Counted from the first letter of the stretch, positions 1 through 62,604 are shown. The stretch is 64,000 nucleotides of DNA from a virus (IMGVR_UViG_3300030061_003170), one strand, 5' to 3'. Made by a program: numbers and translations. The notes: generated from the sequence alone by a model not told the origin.

Positions 1-795
1 ATCATCGACCTTCAGTTTTTTTGAGTAATGATGATCAAGCATTTTTCTAAAATATTCTATTTGAGGACCTTGCTGGTGGATGTCAATTCTAAGATCAGAC
101 TTAGATGGCATCTTATTAGAGGTGCTTGTGAAATTATTATTTTTGGCCGCCTCATCATGATACGTATCATTATATATTTTACCAAAATTGTTCATATTAA
201 AAAACGACATTCCTGTGACATATAAACTTTCAATATCATAATTTAGCAATGTTATGATTCCTGTCAAGCCTGTGTTACACGTTGTCCCGACTTGCTCAAA
301 TATCTTGAAGAGATAACCATCACAAACATTGTGGGTTGGTATTTCTAGTTTACTTAAGAATTGATTAACTGCTGGTAGCGTTTGTACGTTAACCATGGAG
401 CATATTAGGTATTTTAGAGAATTTGCAAATTCCATGTTTGCACCTAAAGCACGTCTTTTGTGAATGTTTAAACAGTTTATTAAAATATCTGTTCTTTTGC
501 CATAATCTTGCCAGTCATTTTCACGCATATGATACGCCTGGTTGACTCTAATTACCAAGTCATGGGAATCTATATACTCACCCATGTTTAAGCCCCTCAG
601 GTGAGGAGAAGGGCACACGTAGGCAATTCTTTTGCCTTTCAATAAGTGTGCTAAATTCTCGTCCCTGTTGTACTCTTTAAAATCACCAACGAATCTTCCG
701 GACCGTCCTAGTCTCTCTAGTTGTTGTGAAGGTGTTAAGGTAGAGGATTGCCATCTTGGAGGATCTACAAATGGTATATTGATTATTTTACCCAT
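1..795 (-). CDS. GT29 (sialyltransferase)-like glycosyltransferase, 3' end runs off window
   Basis: Manual translation from ATG 795, open to base 1 (absent from ORF track): KRIAYVCPSPHLRGLNMGEYIDSHDLVIRVN..DYGKRTD resembles sialylmotif L; CNTGLTGIITLLNYDIESLYVTGMSF resembles sialylmotif S; overlaps stop of upstream GT10 gene. Confidence 0.7.
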   Translation of the reverse strand, partial: MGKIINIPFVDPPRWQSSTLTPSQQLERLGRSGRFVGDFKEYNRDENLAHLLKGKRIAYVCPSPHLRGLNMGEYIDSHDLVIRVNQAYHMRENDWQDYGKRTDILINCLNIHKRRALGANMEFANSLKYLICSMVNVQTLPAVNQFLSKLEIPTHNVCDGYLFKIFEQVGTTCNTGLTGIITLLNYDIESLYVTGMSFFNMNNFGKIYNDTYHDEAAKNNNFTSTSNKMPSKSDLRIDIHQQGPQIEYFRKMLDHHYSKKLKVDD

Positions 796-15099: not shown

Positions 15100-15258
15100 G
15101 TTTTTTTCTAATTTTTGTTTAGCAAGCCTCACCTCTTCCAAGGCAGTCTTGATATTCCTATCATAATCATCAGCCATGGTACTCCACAACTTGGCACGCA
15201 TAAGTTTTTTTTCAATTGTGTCGAGAATCAACCACAATTTGTCATAAGTTTGGCTCAT
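15085..15258 (-). CDS. small hypothetical protein (57 aa, not in track)
   Basis: Manual translation MSQTYDKLWLILDTIEKKLMRAKLW..; fills gap between neighbours. Confidence 0.5.
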   Translation of the reverse strand: MSQTYDKLWLILDTIEKKLMRAKLWSTMADDYDRNIKTALEEVRLAKQKLEKNLTIK

Positions 15259-15484
15259 TTACTTTCTCCAAATAAATTTCATTTATTTCACTAATTGCAC
15301 CATCGTTCCACAATACCTTAATGACGTTTCTAGTTCCAATGTGAGAACGATAATAGTTAAATTTTATTTCTGAGATGATTCCTATACATCTTTTGTTTTT
15401 CAGTTCTTTTTGTATTGGACCAAGTTTTATAATAGTCTTTGAATTAGTAATTCTAACCAAGTCTCCAACTTCAAACTTTTCCAT
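15242..15484 (-). CDS. SH3/KOW-like small protein
   Basis: FEVGDLVRI..IGIISEI..VLWNDG..YLEKV. Confidence 0.6.
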   Translation of the reverse strand: MEKFEVGDLVRITNSKTIIKLGPIQKELKNKRCIGIISEIKFNYYRSHIGTRNVIKVLWNDGAISEINEIYLEKVNEPNL

Positions 15485-15753
15485 TAATACTTCCAAACTT
15501 TTATAACAAGATCACCATCTCCGCATATTAATCGATGATAAGTCATTTTTGGAATCCAATAACTTTCTCCAATAATCAGAGTTTTTGGCAACTCATTGTC
15601 AAGTTGTAATTTCCAATTCCTACCTTCAACCAACTCAACCTTTCTGTCTTCTTTGTCTAGATGCCAGATAAGTTCATCTTGAGAAGTTTCTTTTTTAAAC
15701 TCTCTCAAAAAAAGTTTTTTTCCAATTCGCATTTCGCTGAATGGGAAATCCAT
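15484..15753 (-). CDS. small cupin-like phage protein
   Basis: WHLDKEDR..WKLQLDNELP..IPKMTYHRL. Confidence 0.55.
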   Translation of the reverse strand: MDFPFSEMRIGKKLFLREFKKETSQDELIWHLDKEDRKVELVEGRNWKLQLDNELPKTLIIGESYWIPKMTYHRLICGDGDLVIKVWKY

Positions 15754-32471: not shown

Positions 32472-32577
32472 TGTGTCCTCCTAGGACTGTTGTGTTGTTG
32501 TTGTTGTTGATTATGTTCATAATGTAACAAGGTGGTTCTAACTTGTCAAGGAAAATGGTAAACTTTTTTTTTGTTTT

Positions 32578-32775: not shown

Positions 32776-33143
32776 CCTTTCGTCTCTCTAATCATTTTTG
32801 CTATCTCCTGTCTGTTTGGACCATTTGTCACTTGTTGAGTATCAGCAAGCAAGAAGTCCGGAAACTCCGAAAGTCTCTCGACTAAACCGATCAGTCTACT
32901 CTTGCAATCAATCATACGTCCCCCAGCCCATCGGGGCATTATGGTTGCTATGCTCTTACCAGTAAGTAGATGGGTTGCCACATATCCCCTAGTGTTCGGG
33001 GCATTGTCAATAATCCATTTCTCCCCTCTCTGTTTCATTCTGCGGTGAATGGCGAACGGATAGACAATCTTGCACCGTAAAGGCACTGTAACAGTCTTGT
33101 CGCCTGTCACTAGCATCGTAATGTTGTGGATGGGTGCTGGCAT
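32766..33143 (-). CDS. hypothetical protein
   Basis: GGAG RBS. Confidence 0.6.
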   Translation of the reverse strand: MPAPIHNITMLVTGDKTVTVPLRCKIVYPFAIHRRMKQRGEKWIIDNAPNTRGYVATHLLTGKSIATIMPRWAGGRMIDCKSRLIGLVERLSEFPDFLLADTQQVTNGPNRQEIAKMIRETKGWG

Positions 33144-33200
33144 AATCGCTCCATATATGCGTTCTAACGTATGGGTAGGTGGGTACTAGGGTGTTACCCC

Positions 33201-34418: not shown

Positions 34419-34510
34419 TCAGACCTCCAATGTTTGATGGTTACACAAGTAATGTATCACGCTGCTGTGATTTGTCAAGTAAAATGGCAAAGAAAAATGA
34501 ATAAAAGTGA

Positions 34511-34535
34511 ATGACCCCGGACTAGCCGGGGTCAT
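34511..34535 (-). terminator. 10-bp perfect hairpin after AAA gene
   Basis: ATGACCCCGG-N5-CCGGGGTCAT followed by T-rich tract on minus strand. Confidence 0.7.
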
Positions 34536-34542
34536 CAGCCAC

Positions 34543-35604: not shown

Positions 35605-35912
35605 AAGTAACCTCGCGGTTTTGGGTTGTTGTTTAGATTGTGTCTATATTATAACTAGTTTGAAAAGGTTTGTCAAGGAAAAAGATAAACTTTTTTTCAA
35701 GGTCTAACTTTCTTTCGGCAGGCTCGACGACTGCTTTCCTTGCGCTTGTCCTTGTGCCTACCAGCACCGGATCGTTGAAAGGCAGCAACAGCAACAAGGT
35801 TCCTGTTCTTCAGTGTTTTTGTCTTTTTCTTTTTCATTGTTCCCTCCGTTGATGTTAGTAATGTATCACGGTATTTAGATTTGTCAAGGAAAAAGATAAA
35901 GTTTTTTTGAGA

Positions 35913-36110
35913 TTATGCTATGACTTCGAGCGAACGGATGTTTACCCAAGTGCAAAGTGCTCCAGTTGGGCGGTTGAGCCATCTTACCTTTGCTTGCACA
36001 CAGGTTGTATCGACAACTAGGGCTAAGTATTGTCTATCAGTAAATCCATTCCTATCCACCCAACCGTATCTTACAAGATCCCCGACCCTTATCAAGTCGC
36101 CTATTTGCAT
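35913..36110 (-). CDS. SH3/KOW-like mini-protein
   Basis: MQIGDLIRVGDLV..LEVIA. Confidence 0.7.
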   Translation of the reverse strand: MQIGDLIRVGDLVRYGWVDRNGFTDRQYLALVVDTTCVQAKVRWLNRPTGALCTWVNIRSLEVIA

Positions 36111-36277
36111 ACTACCTCCAAGTCACGATTATCAGCCCCCCATCGCTGGCCAGTATCAATATAAGAGATCAGCCAATCGAATGAAGTTCCAATGGTTGTA
36201 ACATAATCCTTAGCAAGGATAATCGCTATTCTTCTTTTGCTGATTGAGCGATCAATAACTAAATCACCTACTTGCAT
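36101..36277 (-). CDS. SH3/KOW-like mini-protein (58 aa, not in track)
   Basis: MQVGDLVIDRSISKRRIAII..DLEVVCK*. Confidence 0.7.
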   Translation of the reverse strand: MQVGDLVIDRSISKRRIAIILAKDYVTTIGTSFDWLISYIDTGQRWGADNRDLEVVCK

Positions 36278-36447
36278 ATCTTCTCCAGTTGTTCAGGGTA
36301 TTTCCAGTTTGAACAATCTCCAACTAACCAACGAACTTTCAAGACAAGCGCGAGGTGGTCATTGAAACTTGTCTCTGTAATAATCCCGATGACAAGGGGT
36401 GTATTGTCACGATAGGTTATGTTTCTTACTAAATCGCCTACTTGCAT
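36268..36447 (-). CDS. SH3/KOW-like mini-protein (59 aa, not in track)
   Basis: MQVGDLVRNI..IGIITE..KVRWL..QLEKICK*. Confidence 0.7.
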   Translation of the reverse strand: MQVGDLVRNITYRDNTPLVIGIITETSFNDHLALVLKVRWLVGDCSNWKYPEQLEKICK

Positions 36448-36529
36448 TGTGTCTCCTTGTTTGTGTTACATAGGTAGTGTATCACGGTAGTAGGATTTGT
36501 CAAGAAAAAAGATAAAGTTTTTTTTGAGA

Positions 36530-36700
36530 TTATGCTACGACTTCGATTGCTTCGAAGTATACCCAACTTGAAAAAGTATCACCAGACGGAGAAGTGAACC
36601 AGTGAACATTAGCCTGAACACAGGTCGTATCAAGTACAAGGCCCAAGCGAGCAACAAAGTTAGGGTCAGGTCTGAGTGTTACTAAATCGCCTACTTGCAT
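36530..36700 (-). CDS. SH3/KOW-like mini-protein
   Basis: MQVGDLVTL..LGLVLD..VHWF..IEVVA*. Confidence 0.7.
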   Translation of the reverse strand: MQVGDLVTLRPDPNFVARLGLVLDTTCVQANVHWFTSPSGDTFSSWVYFEAIEVVA

Positions 36701-36906
36701 ACTAACTCCAACTCGTGCCATACGAACCATTCAAGGTTCTCTCCATCTATGTGTATCTTGAACAGTGTGCAGGGGGTCGGCTCTATGTGGTCATCCTTGG
36801 CCTCAATGATAATACCTATCTTGCCCTTGTAATGCTTTGCGTTGCTGGGGCCGAGAACGTAGGGCAAACGCTCTTCGTTGAACTTTACTAATGAACCTAC
36901 ATTCAT
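36691..36906 (-). CDS. SH3/KOW-like mini-protein
   Basis: MNVGSLVKF..IGIIIE..ELELVCK*. Confidence 0.7.
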   Translation of the reverse strand: MNVGSLVKFNEERLPYVLGPSNAKHYKGKIGIIIEAKDDHIEPTPCTLFKIHIDGENLEWFVWHELELVCK

Positions 36907-37079
36907 ACTACCTCCAAATAACGGCTATCTACGCCCAGTATGTCTCCGGTCACGAAGTAGAAAACACCCCAGTCAAACGGGGTTCCAATGTCTGTATAGA
37001 ACCCATTAGTGACAATCATCCCGATTGCTTGATTGTTATTACCTAATGAACGGTCAATAACTAAATCTCCTACTTGCAT
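36903..37079 (-). CDS. SH3/KOW-like mini-protein (58 aa, not in track)
   Basis: MQVGDLVIDRSLG..IGMIV..YLEVV*. Confidence 0.7.
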   Translation of the reverse strand: MQVGDLVIDRSLGNNNQAIGMIVTNGFYTDIGTPFDWGVFYFVTGDILGVDSRYLEVV

Positions 37080-37255
37080 ATTACCTCCAGATCACCTGTG
37101 TGTTCCCATGCCCTCAGTGATGCCACACCCAGTCCGTTAGGACAGAACCAATGGACCAAAACGCATCCGTTGTCTCTTTGTCCTTGTTCTAGGATAATAC
37201 CAATGCTGTACCCTCTCCCGCTAGGGCTTATCTGTACTAAATCACCTACTTGCAT
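37070..37255 (-). CDS. SH3/KOW-like mini-protein
   Basis: MQVGDLVQI..IGIILE..VHWF..DLEVICK*. Confidence 0.7.
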   Translation of the reverse strand: MQVGDLVQISPSGRGYSIGIILEQGQRDNGCVLVHWFCPNGLGVASLRAWEHTGDLEVICK

Positions 37256-37422
37256 ATTACCTCCAAGTCATTGGGTTGTTTCCAGTGTTTCATTCCGTTG
37301 CTGTACTGGACAAGGATGGGTGCGCCACCGACACGAGTGTTATCAATCACTATTCCAACCCAGTCTATCTTCATACCATCTGGGTATTCCTTCCTGTATC
37401 TTACCAGACTTCCTACTTCCAT
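37246..37422 (-). CDS. SH3/KOW-like mini-protein (58 aa, not in track)
   Basis: MEVGSLVRY..VGIVID..VQYSNG..DLEVICK*. Confidence 0.7.
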   Translation of the reverse strand: MEVGSLVRYRKEYPDGMKIDWVGIVIDNTRVGGAPILVQYSNGMKHWKQPNDLEVICK

Positions 37423-37482
37423 TATTGTCTCCGTTCTTGTTGGTTACATAGGTAATGTATCACGGTAGGAGTATTTGTCAAG

Positions 37483-37719
37483 TCAAAAGGCAAAGTTTTT
37501 TTCTTTTTTTTCAATGACCTCGAAGTCTTCGGCTTCCTCTTCCCATTGTTCTCCGTTGCACCACTGAATGAGATACTGACGGATGCCGATGAGAGAACAA
37601 TCACTTCCGTCATCCTCGGCAGGGTCGCGATAGTCCATCACAATGCCGATAAGTTTAGTGTTAGGGGTCCAGACCTCTCTTAGTTTTACTAGGTCGCCAA
37701 TCTCAATGTTATCCATCAA
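37483..37719 (-). CDS. SH3/KOW-like mini-protein
   Basis: IEIGDLVKL..IGIVMD..IQWCNG..DFEVI. Confidence 0.7.
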   Translation of the reverse strand: MMDNIEIGDLVKLREVWTPNTKLIGIVMDYRDPAEDDGSDCSLIGIRQYLIQWCNGEQWEEEAEDFEVIEKKEKNFAF

Positions 37720-37897
37720 TCACCTCCACATTCTTTTGTCGAACAAAACCCATTGAATGGTCGTTCCAGTAGATTTTGCACATTTGATACCTCTTTTCTG
37801 CCCAGTTCTGACCGAGCGTTTCAGTCCACATTTTTACTACGACACCTATCATTTCGGGACGGCCAGCCCTGTATTTTACTAAATCTCCTACTTGCAT
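37709..37897 (-). CDS. SH3/KOW-like mini-protein
   Basis: MQVGDLVKY..IGVVVK..IYWND..NVEVIDG*. Confidence 0.7.
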   Translation of the reverse strand: MQVGDLVKYRAGRPEMIGVVVKMWTETLGQNWAEKRYQMCKIYWNDHSMGFVRQKNVEVIDG

Positions 37898-38106
37898 AAT
37901 AACTCCAGCCATTCAGGTTCGTAGTGACATTCATTGCCGTTAGCCCATTGCACATTGACATACTCGTGGTCGCGGACACCATTGGGATGGTTCACTTGTC
38001 GCCCCCATTTCTTGGTCACGATACCGATGAGTTTTAGACCATCCTTGCCCTTGATGTACCCAGCCGATGAGGGCAGCATCACTAAATCTCCGACTTCTAT
38101 CTTCAT
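37888..38106 (-). CDS. SH3/KOW-like mini-protein
   Basis: IEVGDLVML..IGIVTK..VQWANG..WLELLCK*. Confidence 0.7.
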   Translation of the reverse strand: MKIEVGDLVMLPSSAGYIKGKDGLKLIGIVTKKWGRQVNHPNGVRDHEYVNVQWANGNECHYEPEWLELLCK

Positions 38107-38111
38107 TGTGT

Positions 38112-38378
38112 CTATCTCCATGTTTCACCTGTGCTAATGTTGGTTAGTGGAAAACCACCAGAGTTATGTTGTCTCCAACCACCGACGTGCTTAGGGCTGA
38201 GATAGATGTGTCTCGTATGGAAGTCGCTCACGTCTGGGTGTGGGGTAGGTATGTACAAGACCACGATAGCAAAGTCGGGCATCTGTGCCGTCAGTATCTC
38301 TTGCACAATACCAAACTCTTCCTCTGGTCCAAATGTGCATAGGTCAGAGACAGTAAATGGGATTGAATAATCAGTCAT
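38112..38378 (-). CDS. hypothetical early protein, possibly divergent SH3-like
   Basis: Promoter repeat + GGAG; FTVSDLCTF..FGIVQEI. Confidence 0.55.
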   Translation of the reverse strand: MTDYSIPFTVSDLCTFGPEEEFGIVQEILTAQMPDFAIVVLYIPTPHPDVSDFHTRHIYLSPKHVGGWRQHNSGGFPLTNISTGETWR

Positions 38379-38441
38379 TGTTTCTCCGTTGTTGGTTACA
38401 TTCATAATGTATCACGGTTGAAAGATTTGTCAAGGATTTTC

Positions 38442-38651
38442 TCAAACTTTTTTTATCTCGTACCTCTTCATCCTGAGTGTATCACCACTGGAGTACAATC
38501 CGACAATATTGAACCAGCGAATGTTTATTGGGTATTTCACCTCTGGTCGTTCACTGATTTCAACGATAACCCCCATCTTCCCACGAACTAAGTCGTTGCC
38601 TTTGTTCTTGTTGCCGGCTGCCGATAGTGTTACTAAATCGCCTACTTGCAT
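38442..38651 (-). CDS. SH3/KOW-like mini-protein
   Basis: MQVGDLVTL..MGVIVEI..IRWF..EIKKV*. Confidence 0.7.
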   Translation of the reverse strand: MQVGDLVTLSAAGNKNKGNDLVRGKMGVIVEISERPEVKYPINIRWFNIVGLYSSGDTLRMKRYEIKKV

Positions 38652-38794
38652 ATTACCTCCACGTTTCGCACCAGTACCCAAAATACAACACCATCACTCC
38701 AGCGCACCCCAACTCTATTGCCCAGCAGGCCAGTCTCTGTGATGATACCTATTCTGTTCATAATCTTATCCCTGACCAGTGATCCTATTTCCAT
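38642..38794 (-). CDS. SH3/KOW-like mini-protein (50 aa, not in track)
   Basis: MEIGSLVRD..IGIITE..VRWSDG..NVEVICK*. Confidence 0.7.
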   Translation of the reverse strand: MEIGSLVRDKIMNRIGIITETGLLGNRVGVRWSDGVVFWVLVRNVEVICK

Positions 38795-38803
38795 GCAGAC
38801 CTC

Positions 38804-39562
38804 CTACTTTACGAGTTTTATGTCACTTTCACAGACCCAAGTCTCATCAGATTGACCTGCACTAAATGCCACAATCTTGTACAGACGGGTGCTGCCTTTA
38901 GATTTGTGCATCTGGCGGCAGGCAAACGTAGCGTTTAGAACCTCGGCAACTAGGGCTGTCTTGTAAGGCTTTGCAACTTTACGGTCTTGATAGCCGTGCA
39001 GACCGTTACGAAACTCATCGTGACTGTAACTGATAATGCGCCAAGACGAGAATGTGGGAGCAGTTCCTCGTATGGACACTAGGTCACCTACCCCATACAG
39101 GGGGGTAGAGTTGAAGCAGGCCCACAGTTTATCACGCAGTTTGCTACCCTCCAATCTCTCAAGGCGCGGCATGTGGAGATCAATGTCATGACCTTTACGA
39201 TACATCCCTAACTGCCGTCGTAACTCCACCGCGCAGTTTCTGTACCATTGAATGTGGCCCTCGTTTGGGACACTACGTCGCGACACATAGAACAAGGTCA
39301 AAAAGTCAATCCATTTGAGAAACTGCTCGTCTTTAGCATCCCACAATGCTTGCCATTCGTTACGCTTTCTTACCTGCTCCTCGTACATTTCAACAGGGAA
39401 TGCTTCGATTTGCTCCTGACACCATTCAATCTGCCGAGAACTGATTTGTCCTTTCTCAAGGTACTGGTCAGCGATGCTTCGTAAAACGTGCGCCTTACTT
39501 GCTTTGCCAAGGCCCTCGCAAATGTCAGCAGTTTTTCTGATTTGTCCGATTGTGATAGTCAT
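38804..39562 (-). CDS. hypothetical protein with C-terminal SH3/KOW-like domain
   Basis: YGVGDLVSIR..ALVAEV..ESDIKLVK. Confidence 0.65.
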   Translation of the reverse strand: MTITIGQIRKTADICEGLGKASKAHVLRSIADQYLEKGQISSRQIEWCQEQIEAFPVEMYEEQVRKRNEWQALWDAKDEQFLKWIDFLTLFYVSRRSVPNEGHIQWYRNCAVELRRQLGMYRKGHDIDLHMPRLERLEGSKLRDKLWACFNSTPLYGVGDLVSIRGTAPTFSSWRIISYSHDEFRNGLHGYQDRKVAKPYKTALVAEVLNATFACRQMHKSKGSTRLYKIVAFSAGQSDETWVCESDIKLVK

Positions 39563-39636
39563 TTGACCTCCATCTTTCTTGGTTGTGTTTGTAATGTATC
39601 ACGCTGCTGACATTTGTCAAGGAAAAAGATAAAGTT

Positions 39637-39858
39637 TTAGAGAAAATCTTTGTGGAATGCGAGCAGAACGCTGTCAGGATCACGGAATGACCACATCCCT
39701 AACACGATTGTGTCGCCTGTGCGGTTGCACTTTATCTCAAAGTTATCGCCAATGACGACATTGTAGGTGAAGTTATCAGGACAATGATCGTAGATGTGAT
39801 TGAGTATGTCTATGGCTTCCTCAGTGGTTGCTCGGTATGGTTTTAGTTTACTAGTCAT
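39637..39858 (-). CDS. hypothetical protein
   Basis: GAGGAG RBS, MTSKL. Confidence 0.55.
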   Translation of the reverse strand: MTSKLKPYRATTEEAIDILNHIYDHCPDNFTYNVVIGDNFEIKCNRTGDTIVLGMWSFRDPDSVLLAFHKDFL

Positions 39859-40084
39859 TTGTACTCTCCTCGTTGTTAGTGGTTTCAGGGCGACCAAACC
39901 CTATTGGTGTTCTATCTTCTTTGTTTGGTTTTTTTGATGGTGGTGGACCAGCCAAGGCTCCAAGCATCGCTGCTGGTATTCCCATCGGTGCTGGTTGATT
40001 GAGGGTAACCATCATACCCATTACTTTCTTTAGCAGGTCATCACTTAGATTGATGCTAATGTTGATTTCGTTATTTGCTTCCAT
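39851..40084 (-). CDS. hypothetical protein
   Basis: GGAGG RBS, MEANN; C-terminal RTPIGF. Confidence 0.55.
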   Translation of the reverse strand: MEANNEINISINLSDDLLKKVMGMMVTLNQPAPMGIPAAMLGALAGPPPSKKPNKEDRTPIGFGRPETTNNEESTND

Positions 40085-40316
40085 TGTTTCCTCCGTCCTC
40101 TGGTTGTTTGGGCATAGTACAGAGACCATTCTGTACCATACTTGCTGCTGCTCGGCCATAGAAACCCTGTAGTTTCCAAGCATGCTCAGTGTCGATTAGC
40201 CACTGCCACGTTGCAATGTACTTGTCCTCCTCTACTTCCACCTCACCCTCAGCAATCTGCACTGCTTCAGTTAGTGTGAGGTTGTAAGGGTTTTTGATTT
40301 TCTTTTTCTTACCCAT
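40071..40316 (-). CDS. hypothetical phage protein
   Basis: WQWLIDTEHAWKLQGFYGRAA. Confidence 0.65.
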   Translation of the reverse strand: MGKKKKIKNPYNLTLTEAVQIAEGEVEVEEDKYIATWQWLIDTEHAWKLQGFYGRAAASMVQNGLCTMPKQPEDGGNNGSK

Positions 40317-40379
40317 CGTATCTCCTGTGTTCGGGGGGGTACTAGTAATGTATCACGTCTCAAAGATTTGTCAAGTATT

Positions 40380-40619
40380 TTAGGAAACTTTTCTTAGCCA
40401 ACTGTAATGTATGTCGCGTGTCTCACCATTGAGCAGAATGACCACATCATTATCGCGACAGTTATCAGGTGCTTCCACAACATACCCGACCACAAACATC
40501 GGCATATCAGAGCCAAAAAACAAAGTAGTCTTTACGATTACAAGATCGCCTGTTTGGGGCACTATCCCGTAGTCAAATCTGTAAGGTGTTGCGTTTTCGT
40601 AGTGAGCGAATGAAGCCAT
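40380..40619 (-). CDS. SH3/KOW-like mini-protein
   Basis: PQTGDLVIV..VGYVVE..WLRKVS*. Confidence 0.65.
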   Translation of the reverse strand: MASFAHYENATPYRFDYGIVPQTGDLVIVKTTLFFGSDMPMFVVGYVVEAPDNCRDNDVVILLNGETRDIHYSWLRKVS

Positions 40620-40673
40620 GTTTTCCTCCTTGGTGTTAGTAATGTAACACGCTGCTTATGTTTGTCAAGTATT

Positions 40674-40826
40674 TTAGGAAACTTTTATCAAAGACCTCGG
40701 AGAACACAGACACACACCACCATCAACAAACTCTACCACGTAAAATGGATAGTTGTCTTTTGCTAACCTTGTTATGACACCAAATCTCCTATCCTCGGAG
40801 TGCATCACTAAATCACCTATTTTCAT
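40674..40826 (-). CDS. SH3/KOW-like mini-protein (50 aa, not in track)
   Basis: MKIGDLVMH..FGVITR..VEFVDG..SLIKVS*. Confidence 0.7.
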   Translation of the reverse strand: MKIGDLVMHSEDRRFGVITRLAKDNYPFYVVEFVDGGVCLCSPRSLIKVS

Positions 40827-40984
40827 AATACATCCAGTTCTCTCTCATCAAAAACTCTCTTTTCCCCATTTATCATAAGGGTTACCAACCTAGGGTACAT
40901 AGGATAATCCCAACCCAACACTGTACCGACATGAACTTTAGATCCAGAGAGACCCTTTACTATAACTAAATCACCTATTTTCAT
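40823..40984 (-). CDS. SH3/KOW-like mini-protein
   Basis: MKIGDLVIV..VGTVLG..ELDVL*. Confidence 0.7.
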   Translation of the reverse strand: MKIGDLVIVKGLSGSKVHVGTVLGWDYPMYPRLVTLMINGEKRVFDERELDVL

Positions 40985-41175
40985 AATACATCCAAAACAC
41001 GGAATGGAACCCAACCGGCTCTCATTTTTTGAAACCAGTGGACCCTAATGATTGGTGCTTTCTTGCCCCGTACCTCCAGCACCACACCAAGAGATTTTCC
41101 TTTTATCGGTTCCCCGGTGACTGTACAGAAAGTTCTGGATCGTCTATTGTATTTTACCAAATCACCTATTTTCAT
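40981..41175 (-). CDS. SH3/KOW-like mini-protein
   Basis: MKIGDLVKY..LGVVLEV..VHWF..VLDVL*. Confidence 0.7.
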   Translation of the reverse strand: MKIGDLVKYNRRSRTFCTVTGEPIKGKSLGVVLEVRGKKAPIIRVHWFQKMRAGWVPFRVLDVL

Positions 41176-41336
41176 AATACCTCCAGTAAAGCAGCAACCC
41201 ACCATTCACGCTCACCAGCAAACTGGCCACCTGTCCATTGGACATAGATCATGTCATCATCTTTTCCATTACCAATCTGCACAACTAGACCAATCTCTCG
41301 CTTACAGGGTAGGCACACTATATCTCCTATCTGCAT
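41172..41336 (-). CDS. SH3/KOW-like mini-protein (54 aa, not in track)
   Basis: MQIGDIVCL..IGLVVQI..VQWTGG..LLEVL*. Confidence 0.7.
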   Translation of the reverse strand: MQIGDIVCLPCKREIGLVVQIGNGKDDDMIYVQWTGGQFAGEREWWVAALLEVL

Positions 41337-41482
41337 AATAACTCCACTTCATCACCATAGATTAGTTCATATTCGCCATTACCAAGAAATATGGTGGCCA
41401 TATCAGAGATCAGACCAAACACTTCTGTGACAACACCGATGCGGCCATCGTATGTGTATCGTACTAAATCGCCTACTTTCAT
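41327..41482 (-). CDS. SH3/KOW-like mini-protein (51 aa, not in track)
   Basis: MKVGDLVRY..IGVVTEV..EVELLCR*. Confidence 0.7.
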   Translation of the reverse strand: MKVGDLVRYTYDGRIGVVTEVFGLISDMATIFLGNGEYELIYGDEVELLCR

Positions 41483-41649
41483 GCCAACACCTTACACTGG
41501 ATGGGGGTCAATATAATCTCTGCACCGTTTGCAAGTATTACTGTGTGTTGTGCTACAAACCCCGGTCTCTTTTCAATCTTCACGATAGTACCGAACTTCC
41601 CATTGCAACGTCCGTGGAATAGAACCCTTATCAAATCGCCTATTTGCAT
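41479..41649 (-). CDS. SH3/KOW-like mini-protein (56 aa, not in track)
   Basis: MQIGDLIRV..GKFGTIVKI..QCKVLA*. Confidence 0.7.
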   Translation of the reverse strand: MQIGDLIRVLFHGRCNGKFGTIVKIEKRPGFVAQHTVILANGAEIILTPIQCKVLA

Positions 41650-41725
41650 TGTGTCTCCGTTCTTATTGGTTACATAGGTAATGTATCACGGTGGAAGTAT
41701 TTGTCAAGGAAAAAGACAAACTTTT

Positions 41726-41911
41726 TTATATTTTTCTCAAATCCTCAGCATCATAAAAGTATTGAAACCCAAACCATCGGGGCCAATACACTTTGACTGA
41801 CTTCGTTGTTCTACTGATTTCCACGACGATACCCAAGGAACGCTCGCCTTTCGGTTCATCAATGTAAATGTGTGGGTCGCAATGCGTAACTAGATCGCCA
41901 ACTTCGAACAT
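41726..41911 (-). CDS. SH3/KOW-like mini-protein
   Basis: MFEVGDLVTH..LGIVVEI..VYWP..DLRKI*. Confidence 0.7.
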   Translation of the reverse strand: MFEVGDLVTHCDPHIYIDEPKGERSLGIVVEISRTTKSVKVYWPRWFGFQYFYDAEDLRKI

Positions 41912-42072
41912 TATAGTTTCTCCAAACTGCGATAATCAACATAGAACTTTCGAGAATGGTCAGCAGACTTGACATAATAACTGTCCTCGTAAATGTCGCA
42001 CTGGCCAGTAATGATACCAATGAGCCAGCCATAATGCTTTGATTGCCATCTAACTAAATCACCTACTTGCAT
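41911..42072 (-). CDS. SH3/KOW-like mini-protein
   Basis: MQVGDLVRW..IGIITG..SLEKL*. Confidence 0.7.
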   Translation of the reverse strand: MQVGDLVRWQSKHYGWLIGIITGQCDIYEDSYYVKSADHSRKFYVDYRSLEKL

Positions 42073-42242
42073 ACTAACTCCAGATCGTAATAAGGGAACC
42101 AGTCCCATTGTTTCTCAGTGTTTGCGAAAAAAACAAGAAAGGAGTTAGGCAACTGCTTTTTGTTGCGACACTTAGTAATGATCCCAACTTGGTTTGTTCT
42201 CGTGAATAAGTTTGTGACTTTCACTAAGTCTCCTACTTGCAT
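42063..42242 (-). CDS. SH3/KOW-like mini-protein (59 aa, not in track)
   Basis: MQVGDLVKV..VGIITK..DLELVCK*. Confidence 0.7.
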   Translation of the reverse strand: MQVGDLVKVTNLFTRTNQVGIITKCRNKKQLPNSFLVFFANTEKQWDWFPYYDLELVCK

Positions 42243-42319
42243 CTTGTTCTCCTTTCTTCGTCTTGTGTAAGTAATGTATCACGAACAAAAGATTTGTCAA
42301 GGAAAAAAGATAAAGTTTT

Positions 42320-42487
42320 TTAGAGTGTCTCACACCAATCCTCAGGGACAGTGTAAATCTTCCCATCCTGTGGGCAGTAGACTTGCAAGAAGAATGGGCT
42401 AACGTGCATAACCAAAGCGATGAAAGAGAAGTCTGGTGCTTCATCCGGGGTGTCAACATGCACTTTGATAAGGTCACCTGCTGTCAT
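42320..42487 (-). CDS. SH3/KOW-like mini-protein (55 aa, not in track)
   Basis: MTAGDLIKV..IALVMHV..WCETL*. Confidence 0.6.
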   Translation of the reverse strand: MTAGDLIKVHVDTPDEAPDFSFIALVMHVSPFFLQVYCPQDGKIYTVPEDWCETL

Positions 42488-42665
42488 TGATCACTTCTAA
42501 GTCAACAGATGGCCATCGGTTCCTTGTACCATCACCCTTTGCAACCTCAACAATGTAAACTTTATCGTAGATACCGGGACATAGTCTACTTTCAGTCCGC
42601 TGAAGTGACATAATATGTCCAAACCAGTGCTGTCGTTTGTGTCTTACTAGGTCACCGACTTTCAT
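42474..42665 (-). CDS. SH3/KOW-like mini-protein
   Basis: MKVGDLVRH..FGHIMS..DLEVI. Confidence 0.7.
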   Translation of the reverse strand: MKVGDLVRHKRQHWFGHIMSLQRTESRLCPGIYDKVYIVEVAKGDGTRNRWPSVDLEVINDSR

Positions 42666-43584
42666 TGCTCTGCTCCGGATCTTCGTAACGTGCAGCCCAT
42701 CCATCAATCAGATCAGACAGACCGTTCTTTTTTATCCACTCAAGGTTTCTTTTCTTAGACAGCCAATCAAAGGCATCTTGTCTCGCCTGTTGTACCCACC
42801 CCTCATCTAGGGGAGTAGGAGACGGAGAGATGACCTGTGAAATGTATGGCTTTCGAGATGGAGTGTACCTTACATCTGCATCTACTTTAGGTAATACACC
42901 CTTATGTAGTTCAATCTGGACCTTGCCACGGAAGCCGTCTGGTGTGATGAATGATACTTCAATCGGTGTCCTAAGTTCCCAAGACAGTGCTCTATTGTTG
43001 GCCAAAGCCCAGTCCGATGTTACACTGACCTTTTCCCAGTTTACGTCAGTTACCGTGCAAATACCATAAGAGTCTTGCACATATTCTCCGCTTGAATAAT
43101 GATACTTATGTACTTTAGGTTCGATCAAAGCCCCAACATCAATACCATGCTCAGAAACAAGCAGGTCATAGACATACTTTCGGATGGCTTGGTTCGCTCT
43201 GTTTGCTTTCTCACGAAACACTAACAACTCTGCACAGGTTCTACGAGTGTGTCCGGTTTCTCCGCAAAACCCACACTTGCGTTCAGCCTTGGCCCTACGG
43301 GGAGTACTCTCTCTTTCTTGTGCTCTCTTTTGTTTGTGACTAGCAATCATAGTTGCCTGATACCACTCACCCCAAAACCTTGGGTACTTGAACGGGTGCA
43401 TCCTGTGATAGGGCGATTGGGCAGTATGAACCCAGCAATCAGGATCTTTGAGAGGAACTTCCATTCTCTGCCAAGATGCCCAGTCCGGAGCAACGTGTGG
43501 GCACTTTGTGACATTATGCCCCGGCTGTCTACAATAACTGCAAGAGTTAGGTGAGCGTTTATCCTTTTGATCGTAAATCTGCAT
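42652..43584 (-). CDS. double CCHC zinc-knuckle protein
   Basis: CSYCRQPGHNVTKC and CGFCGETGHTRRTC. Confidence 0.75.
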   Translation of the reverse strand: MQIYDQKDKRSPNSCSYCRQPGHNVTKCPHVAPDWASWQRMEVPLKDPDCWVHTAQSPYHRMHPFKYPRFWGEWYQATMIASHKQKRAQERESTPRRAKAERKCGFCGETGHTRRTCAELLVFREKANRANQAIRKYVYDLLVSEHGIDVGALIEPKVHKYHYSSGEYVQDSYGICTVTDVNWEKVSVTSDWALANNRALSWELRTPIEVSFITPDGFRGKVQIELHKGVLPKVDADVRYTPSRKPYISQVISPSPTPLDEGWVQQARQDAFDWLSKKRNLEWIKKNGLSDLIDGWAARYEDPEQSNESR

Positions 43585-43664
43585 TATGCCCTCCAAGGCT
43601 ATGCGGTTGTTGGTTACATAGATAATGTATCACGGTAGTAGGATTTGTCAAGTAAAAAGGGAAA

Positions 43665-43964
43665 CTATTTTTTCTTTTCTTTGAACATAATGTCTAGTAG
43701 TCCGTATGGAACGTTGTAGTAGATACATCGCCAGCCCATAAATCTAACTGGTAGATCAGCACCCTCTTTGTATGATGATGGTACAATCTTCCTATAGCCG
43801 GCTGGACCCTCTGGTAATGTGTCCGATCCCTCCGCATAAACACACAGTGCCCCATCTTTTTGCTTTATCTCAAACGCGCCATCGGTCTGGTCGAGTATGT
43901 GTTTTGTCATTGCACGATGCGCTTCTTCCCAAGGTTCTTTTTTACTGAATGCTAGATTGGCCAT
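43665..43964 (-). CDS. hypothetical protein
   Basis: AGGAGG RBS. Confidence 0.6.
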   Translation of the reverse strand: MANLAFSKKEPWEEAHRAMTKHILDQTDGAFEIKQKDGALCVYAEGSDTLPEGPAGYRKIVPSSYKEGADLPVRFMGWRCIYYNVPYGLLDIMFKEKKK

Positions 43965-43977
43965 TGGCCCTCCTGTG

Positions 43978-44163
43978 TTAGTCCCTGTATCCAGGGGAGT
44001 AAGGTATTAGTTCATAAGCATATTCCAAGACATGCTCGTCTACTTTAGCGTAAAACACGAGATAGATAAGGCCATCAAAGTCATTATCATCAACCATAAC
44101 TTCGGTAACTAAACCAATGCCTAGGTCAGGATCAATAACAAGGTCTCCTATCTCAAACTCCAC
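43978..44163 (-). CDS. SH3/KOW-like mini-protein
   Basis: FEIGDLVID..IGLVTEV..YLVFY. Confidence 0.65.
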   Translation of the reverse strand: MEFEIGDLVIDPDLGIGLVTEVMVDDNDFDGLIYLVFYAKVDEHVLEYAYELIPYSPGYRD

Positions 44164-44164
44164 A

Positions 44165-44392
44165 TCAGCCCTCCGCGATTAGAACTCCGCTCTCGCGTGC
44201 GCCCTCTATCAAAAGCAGGATTGCGTGCCAAGCACTCTCTTGTTGGTCCTTTGGTAGTGTCTCAATCATCTGCATACTAGTAACTAGTAAGTGGGTGAGA
44301 GTAAATCTTTCGCCCATCTCTTTCATTTCTTTCTCAATACCTGTAAGTCTTGTCTCGTTCAACACTTTGTACTCCTTTTTTATTTGTGTCAA
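44165..44392 (-). CDS. hypothetical protein (start uncertain)
   Basis: ORF directly behind promoter repeat. Confidence 0.5.
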   Translation of the reverse strand: MTQIKKEYKVLNETRLTGIEKEMKEMGERFTLTHLLVTSMQMIETLPKDQQESAWHAILLLIEGARESGVLIAEG

Positions 44393-44420
44393 TAATATTG
44401 TAACACGTTTGAAAAACTTG

Positions 44421-44591
44421 TCAAGCGATAACTGTTGTTTTCCAATACCTCAAATCAAAATCAGCGACCTTACCACCATCATACATAAACTTACAGAAAA
44501 GATCAGAGTGATAGGTTGAACCTAAGTAAACGCCAATCATCCGTAGTTGTTCGCATCTGGAAACTATCTGTACTAAATCACCTACCTGCAT
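44421..44591 (-). CDS. SH3/KOW-like mini-protein
   Basis: MQVGDLVQI..IGVYLG. Confidence 0.65.
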   Translation of the reverse strand: MQVGDLVQIVSRCEQLRMIGVYLGSTYHSDLFCKFMYDGGKVADFDLRYWKTTVIA

Positions 44592-44752
44592 ATTACCTCG
44601 CAATACTGTTTGGACCACCAACGAGTATCATTCTCGTTTGGTATCCAAACCTCAATGTGGTGAGATACTGATGGACCATCGGGCGAAACATAAATAACTA
44701 TTCCTATCGTACCGTTCGATTTGTGAAACACTAAAGAGCCAACACTAACCAT
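44582..44752 (-). CDS. SH3/KOW-like mini-protein (56 aa, not in track)
   Basis: MVSVGSLVFH..IGIVIYV..IEVW..YCEVICR*. Confidence 0.65.
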   Translation of the reverse strand: MVSVGSLVFHKSNGTIGIVIYVSPDGPSVSHHIEVWIPNENDTRWWSKQYCEVICR

Positions 44753-44949
44753 CACAAACGCTCCAGTTCTTCTTGTAGTGCTTCTAAAAGTTGTCCGTCT
44801 GAGGCTGTAACTTCATAAAACATAGCACCGTCCTCTAAATAGATTGCGCCTGTTACATGGCCAATACCCTCTCGCCAAGACCAGAAAGAACCAGAGCCAT
44901 CATAACCCATTAGTATCCTGTACTTCACCAGATCGCCTACACTAAACAC
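44752..44949 (-). CDS. SH3/KOW-like mini-protein
   Basis: FSVGDLVKY..IGHVTG..YEV..ELERL*. Confidence 0.65.
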   Translation of the reverse strand: MFSVGDLVKYRILMGYDGSGSFWSWREGIGHVTGAIYLEDGAMFYEVTASDGQLLEALQEELERL

Positions 44950-44958
44950 TTTTGCTCC

Positions 44959-45135
44959 CTATAGCACCTCAAGCACAACGTCTATGAATACTCTACAAAA
45001 CCCTTTCTTGAACCAAAAGACATCTGCTGTCCTGAATGGGTCAGAATATGTAACTACCATGCCGACACCCCAATCCTGTACAAACTCTGGCTCGTAAGTT
45101 TCACTACATAGGATTACAAGGTCGCCTACATTCAA
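44959..45135 (-). CDS. SH3/KOW-like mini-protein (58 aa, TTG start, not in track)
   Basis: AAGGAG + MNVGDLVIL..VGMVVT..VFWF..VLEVL*. Confidence 0.65.
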   Translation of the reverse strand: MNVGDLVILCSETYEPEFVQDWGVGMVVTYSDPFRTADVFWFKKGFCRVFIDVVLEVL

Positions 45136-45443
45136 TGGCTGCTCCTTGTTGATAATGTAACACGTTCATCATCATTGTCAAGGTGTTTTCTAGTCTTTTT
45201 TTTATTATTCATATAAACATCGTATGGCACGAGTACAAACATAGCATCCCAGCCAGTAACTATATCCTTGCCGTGAGGCATCATAACAATGTAAAGCGGG
45301 TATCCACCGGGATCATAATCATCCTTTACCGCTTCTACTACAATACCAACCTCATCGTGCGTACCATCAATAACATCCATCCAAACAACTAAATCACCCG
45401 GGCTGTATGTGTATCCACGGTGGTCGACTCGAGGTTTTCTCAT
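45132..45443 (-). CDS. SH3/KOW-like protein
   Basis: YSPGDLVVW..VGIVVE..YIV. Confidence 0.6.
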   Translation of the reverse strand: MRKPRVDHRGYTYSPGDLVVWMDVIDGTHDEVGIVVEAVKDDYDPGGYPLYIVMMPHGKDIVTGWDAMFVLVPYDVYMNNKKKTRKHLDNDDERVTLSTRSSH

Positions 45444-62418: not shown

Positions 62419-62604
62419 TTAGTCACAATCAAGTCTAGAGAGAGTCTCTTGAACGTGATAATCAAAGACACCTCTGTTTGGCCAAAACACTTTGTAAAGC
62501 CCTACCCACTTATCATAGGACGTTACGATCCCTATCCCATAGGTTAATTCATGATAGAGTGCCCGATGCATAACCAAATCTCCCTTTTCATAAACTTTTA
62601 TCAT
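62419..62604 (-). CDS. SH3/KOW-like small protein
   Basis: YEKGDLVMH..IGIVTS..YKVFW. Confidence 0.6.
   Translation of the reverse strand: MIKVYEKGDLVMHRALYHELTYGIGIVTSYDKWVGLYKVFWPNRGVFDYHVQETLSRLDCD

What the first reader, a model, noticed from the sequence alone, without database searches (positions are those of the whole stretch)
35913..45443. About 30 hyper-divergent SH3/KOW/Tudor-like mini-proteins in early operons
Seen: about 30 ORFs of mostly 50-80 aa, at least 11 below the ORF-track cutoff. They share the pattern (Q/K/E)(V/I)GDLV - variable loop - (I/L)G(I/V)(I/V) - loop - V.W/F..G - LE(V/K)(I/V). About 7 more are scattered elsewhere (15242, 19749, 28449, 45984, 49259, 62419, 63194). 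Established: this spacing fits a five-stranded SH3-type barrel such as KOW or Tudor. Inference: a constant scaffold with variable loops behind strong early promoters suggests a diversified binder library, for example anti-defence inhibitors, decoys, or NusG-KOW/ribosomal-protein mimics for host takeover.
Basis: partly seen in the sequence, partly recalled or inferred. Interest (0 to 1): 0.8.

Follow-up and report, generated by a model that had tools for sequence, protein, structure and literature searches.

The report
Shuffled array of SH3-like mini-genes
An uncultured marine phage of about 177 kb packs 31 tiny genes for one small barrel-shaped protein into a dozen early operons. The genes are joined by a short sequence that serves as the end of one gene and the ribosome site and start of the next, and related phages add, lose and move whole genes there; what the proteins do is still unknown.

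Summary
Observation confirmed. Window 35913-45443 (minus strand) holds 31 paralogous genes of 50-103 aa. Two more solid copies lie outside it (15242-15496, 62419-62604).

AlphaFold models of a typical member and of the most divergent one give the same five-strand SH3-like barrel (pLDDT 93 and 92). No Pfam or PHROG family is reached.

The C-terminal 'LEV(I)CK' motif is partly not a protein feature. CTG-GAG-GTA is the Shine-Dalgarno site of the next gene, and ATA-TGC-AAG-TAG overlaps its ATG-CAA-GTA-G start.

Thirteen near-identical sigma-70 promoter cassettes lie in or border the array.

Relatives in Tara and IMG/VR data carry 13-28 copies per fetched locus with almost entirely different cassettes. 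Strains about 97% identical differ by whole-cassette insertion, deletion and relocation, with breakpoints in the junction or promoter repeats.

Orthologues are under purifying selection: dN/dS 0.17 in strands and 0.28 in loops.

Function is untested. The best guess is a varied set of early host-binding modules.

This scan found similar arrays before on other phage DNA (e1-5411292, e1-5335539 and others). I class it as a new variant of known kinds: SH3-like barrels and PeSL-like cassette shuffling.

The parts
45132..45443 (-). cassette 1 (103 aa; barrel plus a C-terminal tail that reads through the next promoter cassette)
   Evidence: profile E 2.3e-11; promoter 45181-45154 lies inside its 3' end
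44421..45135 (-). operon behind promoter 45181-45154: cassettes 2-5 (44959-45135, 44752-44949, 44582-44755, 44421-44591)
   Evidence: profile E 1e-9 to 5e-15; starts and overlaps
43978..44163 (-). cassette 6 (61 aa, net charge -13), in the operon behind promoter 44424-44397 between two non-family genes (44165-44392, 43665-43964)
   Evidence: profile E 6.4e-9; charge
42320..42665 (-). cassettes 7 and 8 (42474-42665, 42320-42487), coupled by a 14-nt overlap (..INDSR*/MTAGD) downstream of the zinc-knuckle gene 42652-43596 (promoter 43651-43624)
   Evidence: AlphaFold2 model of 42320-42487 has pLDDT 92.4
41726..42242 (-). operon behind promoter 42300-42273: cassettes 9-11 (42063-42242, 41911-42072, 41726-41911)
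   Evidence: in relatives L001/L002/L005 cassette 30 sits between cassettes 9 and 10
40674..41649 (-). operon behind promoter 41707-41680: cassettes 12-17 (41479-41649, 41327-41482, 41172-41336, 40981-41175, 40823-40984, 40674-40826), joined by 4-nt ATGA overlaps
   Evidence: cassette 12 with its promoter, and cassette 16, are absent from the ~97% identical relatives
40380..40619 (-). cassette 18 (79 aa, with an N-terminal extension) behind promoter 40668-40641
   Evidence: profile E 1.6e-12
38442..38794 (-). cassettes 19 and 20 (38642-38794, 38442-38651), downstream of the 252-aa gene 38804-39562 (promoter 39620-39593)
37483..38121 (-). cassettes 21-23 (37888-38121, 37709-37897, 37483-37719), behind promoter 38433-38406 and the 97-aa gene 38112-38405
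   Evidence: relatives carry an HNH endonuclease gene and an extra cassette here
36530..37422 (-). operon behind promoter 37481-37454: cassettes 24-28 (37246-37422, 37070-37255, 36903-37079, 36691-36906, 36530-36700)
   Evidence: only 82% nucleotide identity to L002 here, against ~97% in the flanks
35913..36447 (-). operon behind promoter 36503-36476: cassettes 29-31 (36268-36447, 36101-36277, 35913-36110)
   Evidence: AlphaFold2 model of 36268-36447 has pLDDT 93; the cassette order differs in L002
35648..45181 (-). 13 near-identical promoter cassettes: A/T tract, TTGACA, 16-17 nt, TG-extended TACATT, AC-rich leader, GGAG. Hexamer spans: 45181-45154, 44424-44397, 43651-43624, 42300-42273, 41707-41680, 40668-40641, 40374-40347, 39620-39593, 38433-38406, 37481-37454, 36503-36476, 35887-35860, 35676-35648
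   Evidence: no stable hairpin upstream
36258..36287 (-). example of the ~30-nt dual-coded junction (consensus yTGGAGGTAaTATGCAAGTAGGnGATTTAGTa). It holds the upstream ..LE(V)ICK codons and stop, plus the Shine-Dalgarno site, ATG and MQVGDLV codons of the next cassette
   Evidence: junction classes of -10, -4 and -14 nt overlap in 59, 27 and 19 of 125 coupled cassettes
15242..15496 (-). isolated family member outside the array
   Evidence: profile E 7.6e-8, not in the training set; ORF
62419..62604 (-). isolated family member outside the array
   Evidence: profile E 9.4e-8, not in the training set; ORF

Best explanation
The region is the accessory early region of an uncultured marine phage; the window's own contig appears to be 176,773 bp. 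It encodes 31 old, highly diverged paralogues of one unnamed 50-80 aa protein that folds as a five-strand SH3-like beta-barrel. SHOWN: (1) The genes sit in about 12 short operons, each behind a near-identical sigma-70-type promoter cassette. (2) Inside an operon the genes are linked by 4-, 10- or 14-nt overlaps. The last codons of one gene (L-E-V = CTG GAG GTA; I-C-K-stop = ATA TGC AAG TAG) also provide the Shine-Dalgarno site, the ATG and the first codons (M-Q-V-G) of the next gene. (3) The ~30-nt junction and the promoter cassettes are the places where whole genes are inserted, deleted and relocated between strains about 97% identical, and where one mosaic relative switches to an unrelated cassette set. 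(4) Each cassette, once present, is kept by purifying selection. INFERRED: (5) The operons are transcribed early by host RNA polymerase and translated by coupling. (6) The proteins are a varied set of small binding modules. Each would use its own beta1-beta2 and beta2-beta3 loops, the RT and n-Src loop positions of SH3 domains, to bind a different host component or defence component. (7) The repertoire would be re-assorted by homologous recombination at the shared junctions during co-infection. I put about 0.9 on the anatomy and cassette dynamics, and about 0.45 on the binder or host-interaction function. The overall confidence given reflects the functional part.
For: Family and strand specificity: 33 profile hits on the minus strand and none on the plus strand. 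Fold: pLDDT 93.0 and 92.4 for a typical and for the most divergent member, with the same strand order. Structural matches are all SH3-like barrels at Z 7-8.3, and BFVD and ESM-Atlas matches are unnamed viral proteins. Dual coding: upstream sequences and starts and codon tables. At the -1 position before the Gly, Val is GTA in 15 of 19 cases, against 19% genome usage, because TA+G forms the upstream TAG stop. An xExx tail occurs in 90 of 125 coupled cassettes but only 15 of 42 promoter-followed cassettes (odds ratio 4.6, p 4e-5). Promoters. Cassette dynamics: the order map shows the window as 1..31, while L001/L002/L005 have cassette 30 moved to follow 9, lack 12 and 16, carry an extra cassette 63 plus HNH, and have a different tail order. 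L004 is 97% identical up to cassette 9 and then carries ten unrelated cassettes. Adjacent HSP ends overlap by 23-33 nt inside the junction repeat. Selection: 27 independent orthologue pairs give dN/dS 0.165 in strands and 0.282 in loops; flanking non-family genes give 0.13. Diversity: 318 family ORFs from the window and 20 related loci fall into 153 clusters at 50% identity. None of the 33 window cassettes has a match of 50% or more in the L007 lineage, whose core proteins are 61-68% identical. Heterogeneous surfaces: pI 4.1-11.0 and net charge -13 to +10, with no conserved surface residue beyond the core and turn positions. This fits many different targets better than one shared ligand.
Against: No target, host or phenotype is known, and no family member has an assigned function. 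There is no sign of positive selection, which an active arms race might leave: dN/dS is below 0.3 even in the loops. 'Early' rests only on promoter consensus. Both AlphaFold models used alignments of the paralogues, so they test the family fold and not each member independently. The fetched loci of relatives cover only parts of their arrays, so the turnover figures overstate loss.
Confidence: 0.5

Rival explanations
1. The mini-proteins act on the transcription or translation machinery as KOW-type mimics of NusG, Spt5, uL24 or eS4, or as general nucleic-acid binders or chaperones, rather than as a set of diverse binders.
For: The N-terminal GD-L-V ... G-I-V pattern resembles the KOW motif. The profile against PDB sequences gives its best, though weak, hits to Spt5 KOW domains, eS4 and uL24 (E 0.002-0.1). 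The NusG KOW domains 2xhc and 1m1g have the highest sequence identity among structural matches (26-28% over about 50 residues, Z 7.3-7.6).
Against: No member reaches the Pfam KOW threshold. Only 1 of 41 gives a sub-threshold KOWx hit (E 0.0093). Structural scores do not separate KOW from Tudor, PWWP, NdhS, PsaE or R67 DHFR. Charge ranges from -13 to +10 and 17 of 31 members are acidic, which is not expected of a common nucleic-acid binder. Thirty-one different mimics of one partner would be hard to explain.
Confidence: 0.12
2. The array is mostly evolutionary baggage: an 'ORFanage' of easily duplicated, easily lost cassettes kept by the recombinogenic junctions and promoters. Individual functions would be weak or conditional, with no coherent role.
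For: Cassettes come and go between strains about 97% identical. None is shared with more distant relatives. Hyperplastic regions full of dispensable small early genes are well known in T4-type phages (PMC2839356, PMC4122927).
Against: Orthologues are under clear purifying selection (dN/dS 0.17-0.28). Array size stays at 13-28 or more copies per fetched locus across lineages whose core genes have diverged to 61-68% protein identity. The fold is preserved in the most divergent member.
Confidence: 0.18
3. Cassettes of one operon assemble with each other into hetero-oligomers, for example Sm-like or R67-like rings or sheets. Translational coupling would then serve to set their stoichiometry.
For: Tight translational coupling links 2-6 cassettes per operon. 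Several SH3-like small barrels among the structural matches are obligate oligomers, such as R67 DHFR 1vie (Z 7.9).
Against: Operon composition changes freely between close strains: cassette 30 moves to another operon, and cassettes 12 and 16 are dispensable. That is hard to reconcile with fixed hetero-complexes. No conserved interface residues were seen. This was not tested by co-folding.
Confidence: 0.07
4. The repeat is a non-coding DNA or RNA array, and the ORFs are incidental.
For: There is a conserved ~30-nt repeat at fairly regular spacing of 150-230 nt.
Against: The frames are open in one strand only. Profile hits number 33 against 0 between the strands. dN/dS is well below 1. The fold predictions are confident. 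The Gly codon inside the repeat is free at its third position (GGC 12, GGT 11, GGA 8).
Confidence: 0.01

Closest known systems
PeSL (promoter-early stem-loop) cassettes in hyperplastic regions of T4-type phages (Arbiol et al. 2010, PMC2839356; Comeau et al. 2014, PMC4122927)
   Same: Many copies of a strong sigma-70-like early promoter motif are scattered among small non-essential genes. Insertions, deletions and replacements between closely related phages map to these repeats, so homologous recombination between repeats shuffles gene modules.
   Different: Here there is no stable stem-loop or terminator next to the promoter (fold energies 0 to -5 kcal/mol). A second repeat that lies inside coding sequence, the dual-coded gene junction, also serves as a crossover point. 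The shuffled genes are all paralogues of one protein family, not unrelated ORFans. The phage showed no nucleotide match and only 27-32% (polymerase) and about 43-45% (GroEL) protein identity to phages in the GenBank collection.
SH3-like small beta-barrels: KOW domains of NusG/Spt5 (2xhc, 1m1g, 4zn3, 5ohq), Tudor (6if4), PWWP (6kco), NdhS (6hum_S, 6a7k), PsaE, PetP (7r0w_V), R67 DHFR (1vie)
   Same: A five-strand barrel of 50-60 residues with a short 3-10 turn before the last strand. A Gly-Asp precedes strand 1 and Gly residues sit in the hairpins. Matches reach Z 7-8.3 with rmsd about 2 A over 50-55 residues.
   Different: No sequence-family threshold is reached. There is no conserved aromatic cage, catalytic residue or partner domain. 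The proteins are stand-alone and present in 31 or more copies.
Lineage-specific expansions of small domains in large phages, e.g. ~35 zinc-ribbon copies in Bacillus phage G (Iyer et al. 2021, PMC7824862)
   Same: Tens of copies of one tiny domain in a single large phage genome, with function unknown.
   Different: A different fold. Here the copies form coupled tandem operons with a dual-coded junction, and cassette exchange between strains is documented.
Earlier findings of this scan on other phage genomes (e1-5411292, e1-5335539, e1-5402011, e1-1961814, e1-296376)
   Same: Tandem arrays of SH3-like mini-proteins in large phages. Two marine cases were also reported with a dual-purpose junction at which relatives swap whole genes.
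   Different: They lie on other DNA, and no shared stretches with this window were found. Whether they belong to the same sequence family was not tested here. These are unreviewed AI notes, not publications.

Membership tests
SH3-like small beta-barrel fold | Five antiparallel strands forming a closed or partly open barrel of about 50-60 residues | tested here: met
   AlphaFold2 gives pLDDT 93.0 and 92.4 with strands E6-9/20-28/34-40/46-49/54-58 and E6-11/20-29/33-38/43-48/52-54. The top 50 structural matches are all SH3-like barrels, at Z 6.6-8.3.
KOW domain (Pfam PF00467; NusG/Spt5/uL24) | Sequence match to the KOW motif model above the curated threshold | tested here: not met
   None of 41 members reaches any Pfam gathering score. 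There is one sub-threshold KOWx_SPT5 hit (E 0.0093, 16 bits against a cut-off of 20).
KOW domain (Pfam PF00467; NusG/Spt5/uL24) | Context: fused to an NGN domain or part of a ribosomal protein | tested here: not met
   All members are stand-alone proteins of 50-103 aa with no other domain.
Tudor/chromo/PWWP 'Royal' family | Conserved aromatic cage for methyl-lysine or methyl-arginine | tested here: inconclusive
   The only recurrent aromatics, W40 and W48, occur in 13 and 11 of 31 members. No cage geometry was examined.
PeSL regulatory cassette (T4-type phages) | Strong sigma-70-like early promoter repeated in the variable region | tested here: met
   13 copies in the array and 33 on the coding strand of the window, against 1 on the other strand. 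This is a consensus match only; promoter activity was not tested.
PeSL regulatory cassette (T4-type phages) | Adjacent stable stem-loop acting as a terminator | tested here: not met
   The 33 nt upstream of each -35 hexamer fold with 0 to -5.2 kcal/mol. The terminator scan found 8 sites in the region against 7.6 expected.
PeSL regulatory cassette (T4-type phages) | Indel and replacement boundaries between close relatives coincide with the repeats | tested here: met
   All structural differences seen between the window and L001-L005 lie at cassette junctions or promoter cassettes.
Diversity-generating (hypermutation) system | Ongoing targeted hypervariation of a variable region (excess non-synonymous change; template repeat plus reverse transcriptase) | tested here: not met
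   Loops have dN/dS 0.28. Cassettes shared by strains are 90-100% identical. A reverse transcriptase was not specifically searched for.

The most novel reading that the evidence does not exclude
The dual-coded ~30-nt junction is more than a translational-coupling device. It would be a frame-safe crossover site that turns the array into an integrase-free cassette exchange system. Any cassette from any co-infecting relative could be spliced in by homologous recombination and be expressed at once, because promoter, ribosome site, start and the first beta-strand come with the junction. A clade of marine phages would thus share a pan-repertoire of hundreds to thousands of SH3-like binders, from which each strain carries about 30 matched to its current hosts and their defences.
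Probability: 0.3. Interest if true: 0.8.

Novelty: new variant of a known kind. Interest (0 to 1): 0.55.

Why it matters
If the cassettes are host-directed binders, this clade of abundant marine phages carries one of the largest natural libraries built on a single 55-residue scaffold. I found 153 clusters at 50% identity in the few loci fetched, and up to about 1,900 clusters in a 1.8-billion-protein library matched the profile, though that count includes unrelated SH3-like proteins such as eukaryotic repeat proteins. Such a library could yield new inhibitors of bacterial defence or core machinery, and a ready-made scaffold for binder engineering.

The junction also shows an unusual triple use of one sequence. 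It is protein terminus, ribosome site and start, and recombination point. That explains why a 'protein motif' (LEV-ICK) is conserved for non-protein reasons. This is a caution for motif-based annotation of overlapping phage genes.

Tried and rejected
- Megablast of the array against GenBank phages gave no match.
- tblastn of one cassette against the same collection gave no match at E 0.01.
- tblastn of a fused five-repeat relative (P0002) gave only two weak hits, in Pseudomonas and Stenotrophomonas phages.
- No whole genome is held for the window, and the 195-kb relative behind L007 could not be searched whole.
With the zinc-knuckle protein as query it found one distant contig.
No expression evidence was obtained and read laying was not used.
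- Foldseek against PDB gave no match at E<=0.001. The best was PetP at E 0.016, so the cyanobacterial PetP, PsaE and NdhS matches are treated as generic fold likeness and not as mimicry.
- Pfam and PHROG scans of the non-family genes inside the array gave only DUF7417/phrog_3908 for 40071-40316; the zinc-finger match for 42652-43596 came. This offered no functional clue.
- A stem-loop next to the promoters, which would make them true PeSLs, was looked for and not found.
- Literature searches for a published description of such SH3-like mini-gene arrays found none. That is not proof that none exists.
- The host was not identified. Strong GGAG(G) ribosome sites and TTGACA/extended -10 promoters argue only for a bacterium with canonical sigma-70 and Shine-Dalgarno usage.

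Full report
**What is there**

All genes in the 64-kb window are on the minus strand. It encodes a DnaE-type polymerase, a GroEL, a PhoH, glycosyltransferases and a MoxR-type ATPase with a VWA/DUF2201 partner. There is no nucleotide match to any GenBank phage. The best protein matches are 27-32% identical for the polymerase and about 43-45% for GroEL. Near-identical contigs come from Tara Oceans and other marine metagenomes. A more distant relative lies on a 194,956-bp contig, and the window's own contig appears to be 176,773 bp. So this is an uncultured large marine phage whose host is unknown.

**Checking the observation**

Listing ORFs of 35 aa or more between 35.5 and 46 kb shows a chain of minus-strand ORFs that begin M(Q/K/E)(V/I)GDLV and mostly end LEV(I/V/L)(CK). 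I collected 31 of them and aligned them as A1.

- G4 is invariant. D5, L6, V7, G21 and G43 are near-invariant. V38 and L54-E55-V56-I57 are common. Everything else is highly variable.
- A profile of A1 searched against every six-frame ORF of the window finds 33 hits at E<1e-3, all on the minus strand and none on the plus strand.
- These are the 31 training members plus two untrained ORFs, 15242-15496 and 62419-62604, both at E about 1e-7.
28449, 45984 and 49259 are not supported.
- The nearest paralogue of each member is only 25-52% identical, usually about 30%, so 'hyper-divergent' is fair.

**Fold**

AlphaFold2 was run on 36268-36447 with A1 as the alignment. It gives pLDDT 93.0 and five strands. 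The lowest-scoring in-array member, 42320-42487, gives pLDDT 92.4 and the same strand order.

- An exhaustive structural comparison gives Z 7-8.3 (rmsd about 2 A over 50-55 residues) to many SH3-like barrels. These include the Hpy99I N-domain, Spt5/NusG KOW, Tudor, PWWP, NdhS, PsaE, PetP and R67 DHFR. Nothing separates them.
- Foldseek against PDB has no hit below E 0.016.
- BFVD and the ESM Atlas return only unnamed viral proteins. Many BFVD hits carry runs of neighbouring UniProt accessions, which suggests multi-copy sets in other uncultured phages.
- No member reaches a Pfam or PHROG threshold.
- A profile search of PDB sequences gives only weak KOW and MIB hits.

The fold assignment is therefore supported. 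Membership in KOW or Tudor is not.

**The junction**

Printing the 40 nt upstream of every start shows that the conserved C-terminus is dual-coded.

- L-E-V is (C/T)TG GAG GTA, which is the GGAGGT Shine-Dalgarno site 7-8 nt before the next ATG.
- I-C-K-stop is ATA TGC AAG TAG, which contains ATG CAA GTA G, the M-Q-V-G of the next gene. That is a 10-nt overlap.

Two other registers occur. One is a 4-nt ATGA overlap (..VL*/MK..). The other is a 14-nt overlap (..INxSR*/M(K/T)xGD). Among 125 coupled cassettes from the window and its relatives, the three registers occur 59, 27 and 19 times.

Codon tables confirm a nucleotide-level constraint. At the -1 position before the Gly, Val is GTA in 15 of 19 cases and Ile is ATA in 8 of 9, against 19% and 13% genome usage, because TA+G forms the upstream stop. 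The Gly third position inside the repeat is free.

The Glu of 'LEV' is present in 72% of cassettes followed by a coupled gene but only 36% of cassettes followed by a promoter (odds ratio 4.6, p 4e-5). The L-x-(V/K)-(I/V/L) pattern that remains at operon ends is strand 5.

**Promoters and operons**

Thirteen copies of TTGACA-N16/17-TG-TACATT lie on the minus strand between 35676 and 45181. The whole window has 33 on the minus strand and 1 on the plus strand.

Conservation extends about 20 nt upstream, as an A-tract and T-tract, and about 25 nt downstream, as an AC-rich leader ending in GGAG. The upstream part does not fold into a stable hairpin (0 to -5 kcal/mol), and no excess of terminators is seen.

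The array therefore forms about 12 short operons of 1-6 cassettes. A few unrelated small genes and two larger ones are interspersed: a 314-aa protein with a zinc-finger match and a 252-aa ORFan. That they are 'early' is inferred from the host-type promoter.

**Relatives and dynamics**

Exact-sequence look-ups of database hits, plus a scan of IMG/VR for the junction, brought in 20 loci.

- Each array-bearing locus carries 13-28 family members on one strand. L017 (112-kb contig) and L019 (192-kb contig) carry 27-28 copies within about 13 kb each (28 each; 28 and 27 after the ORF filter) and have little or no nucleotide similarity to the window.
- In all, 318 family ORFs fall into 153 clusters at 50% identity.
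- A profile search of 1.84 billion representative proteins gives 1,889 clusters at E<=1e-3. Of the best 150, 101 are proteins of 110 aa or less. Most start MQVGDLV or MKVGDLV and end CK or SR, which are the same junction registers. The larger hits are unrelated multi-domain proteins with SH3-like repeats.

Against strains about 97% identical (L001, L002, L003, L005), the cassette order differs as follows.

- Cassette 30 (36101-36277 here) sits between cassettes 9 and 10 there, at 97.8% identity.
- Cassette 12 with its promoter, and cassette 16, are missing there.
- An HNH endonuclease gene and an extra cassette are present there, after the promoter that corresponds to 38433.
- Cassettes 24-27 are only 82% identical.
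- The last operon has a different membership and order.

Adjacent alignment blocks overlap by 23-33 nt inside the junction repeat. L004 is 97% identical up to 21 nt past the start of cassette 10. It then continues with ten unrelated cassettes and a 69%-identical ATPase region, so it is a mosaic whose crossover lies in a junction.

In the L007 lineage, whose core proteins are 61-68% identical, no window cassette has a match of 50% or more, although the array is of similar size. Because the fetched loci cover only parts of the arrays, this overstates loss somewhat.

**Selection**

Between the window and its ~97% relatives, family orthologues show clearly more synonymous than non-synonymous change. 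One misaligned pair inflates the raw figure of 0.37. Flanking genes give 0.13.

With 27 independent orthologue pairs of 60-98% identity from all loci, dN/dS is 0.165 in the strand columns and 0.282 in loops and inserts. So the proteins are real and constrained, and the loops are freer but not positively selected. The diversity is old divergence plus cassette turnover, not hypermutation.

**Function**

Nothing computed here identifies a target. What the data do show is this.

- The conserved positions are core or turn positions.
- The length-variable segments are beta1-beta2 (6-22 residues) and beta2-beta3 (7-21 residues). In SH3 domains these are the RT and n-Src loops that flank the ligand groove (the SH3 loop roles are established knowledge).
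- pI ranges from 4.1 to 11.0 and net charge from -13 to +10.
- The genes are accessory, behind host-type promoters, and kept in large numbers across the clade.

This pattern fits a set of different small binders acting on host or defence components early in infection. I give that reading about 0.45. A KOW-type mimic or nucleic-acid role gets about 0.12, mostly dispensable cassettes about 0.18, and hetero-oligomers about 0.07. A non-coding repeat is effectively excluded.

**Comparison with what is known**

The closest published mechanism for the dynamics is PeSL-mediated modular shuffling in T4-type hyperplastic regions (PMC2839356, PMC4122927). The shared features are a repeated strong early promoter and indels bounded by the repeats. 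The differences are the missing stem-loop, the additional in-frame coding junction used as a crossover site, and the fact that all modules are paralogues of one fold.

Large lineage-specific expansions of a tiny domain are known in big phages, for example about 35 zinc ribbons in phage G (PMC7824862). I found no paper describing SH3-like mini-gene arrays of this kind.

This scan has reported similar arrays before in other phage genomes. Two were marine phages with a dual-purpose junction (e1-5411292, e1-5335539), and there were arrays in a soil jumbo phage, an Acinetobacter phage and an rV5-like phage. No shared sequence with this window was found.

**Verdict**

The finding is a new variant of known kinds and is moderately interesting. 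The main open question is what the proteins bind.

Noticed in passing
window 27400-35900 (minus strand): The same promoter cassette (A/T tract, TTGACA, N16-17, TG-TACATT, AC-rich leader, GGAG) occurs about 17 more times upstream of small non-family ORFs and of the MoxR-type ATPase and DUF2201 genes. Two copies (31838 and 31256) are nearly identical over more than 50 nt.
   Followed up: partly
L001:13643-14422 (also L002:4872-5651, L005:4781-5560); corresponds to window ~38374-38394: Relatives about 97% identical to the window carry a 259-aa HNH endonuclease gene plus an extra 61-aa ORF. They are inserted just after the promoter cassette that precedes 38112-38405 here; the window lacks both.
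   Followed up: partly
window 42652-43596 (-): A 314-aa protein inside the array has two Cys/His clusters (near residues 20-32 and 108-122). It has a Pfam zf-C2H2_10 hit and is conserved at 29% identity in the distant L007 lineage. Function unknown.
   Followed up: partly
window 35697-35837 (-): A 46-aa, extremely Lys/Arg-rich ORF has its own promoter cassette (35887-35860) between the array and the ATPase gene.
   Followed up: no
window 45132-45443 (-) and promoter 45181-45154: The 103-aa first cassette has a C-terminal tail that is translated straight through the next promoter cassette, so promoter DNA doubles as coding sequence.
   Followed up: no
window 1-26000 versus 26000-64000: G+C content steps from 0.33-0.41 in the left part (sugar pathway, PhoH, large ORFans) to 0.41-0.50 in the right part (early region, replication genes).
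   Followed up: no
P0002 (370 aa, metagenomic protein): Five copies of the same barrel are fused in one polypeptide by acidic EEE(K)VMKFKVGD linkers, followed by a helical tail. This is a fused form of the array, of unknown origin.
   Followed up: partly
window 14177-14250 (-): A single tRNA-Arg (anticodon TCT) gene.
   Followed up: no
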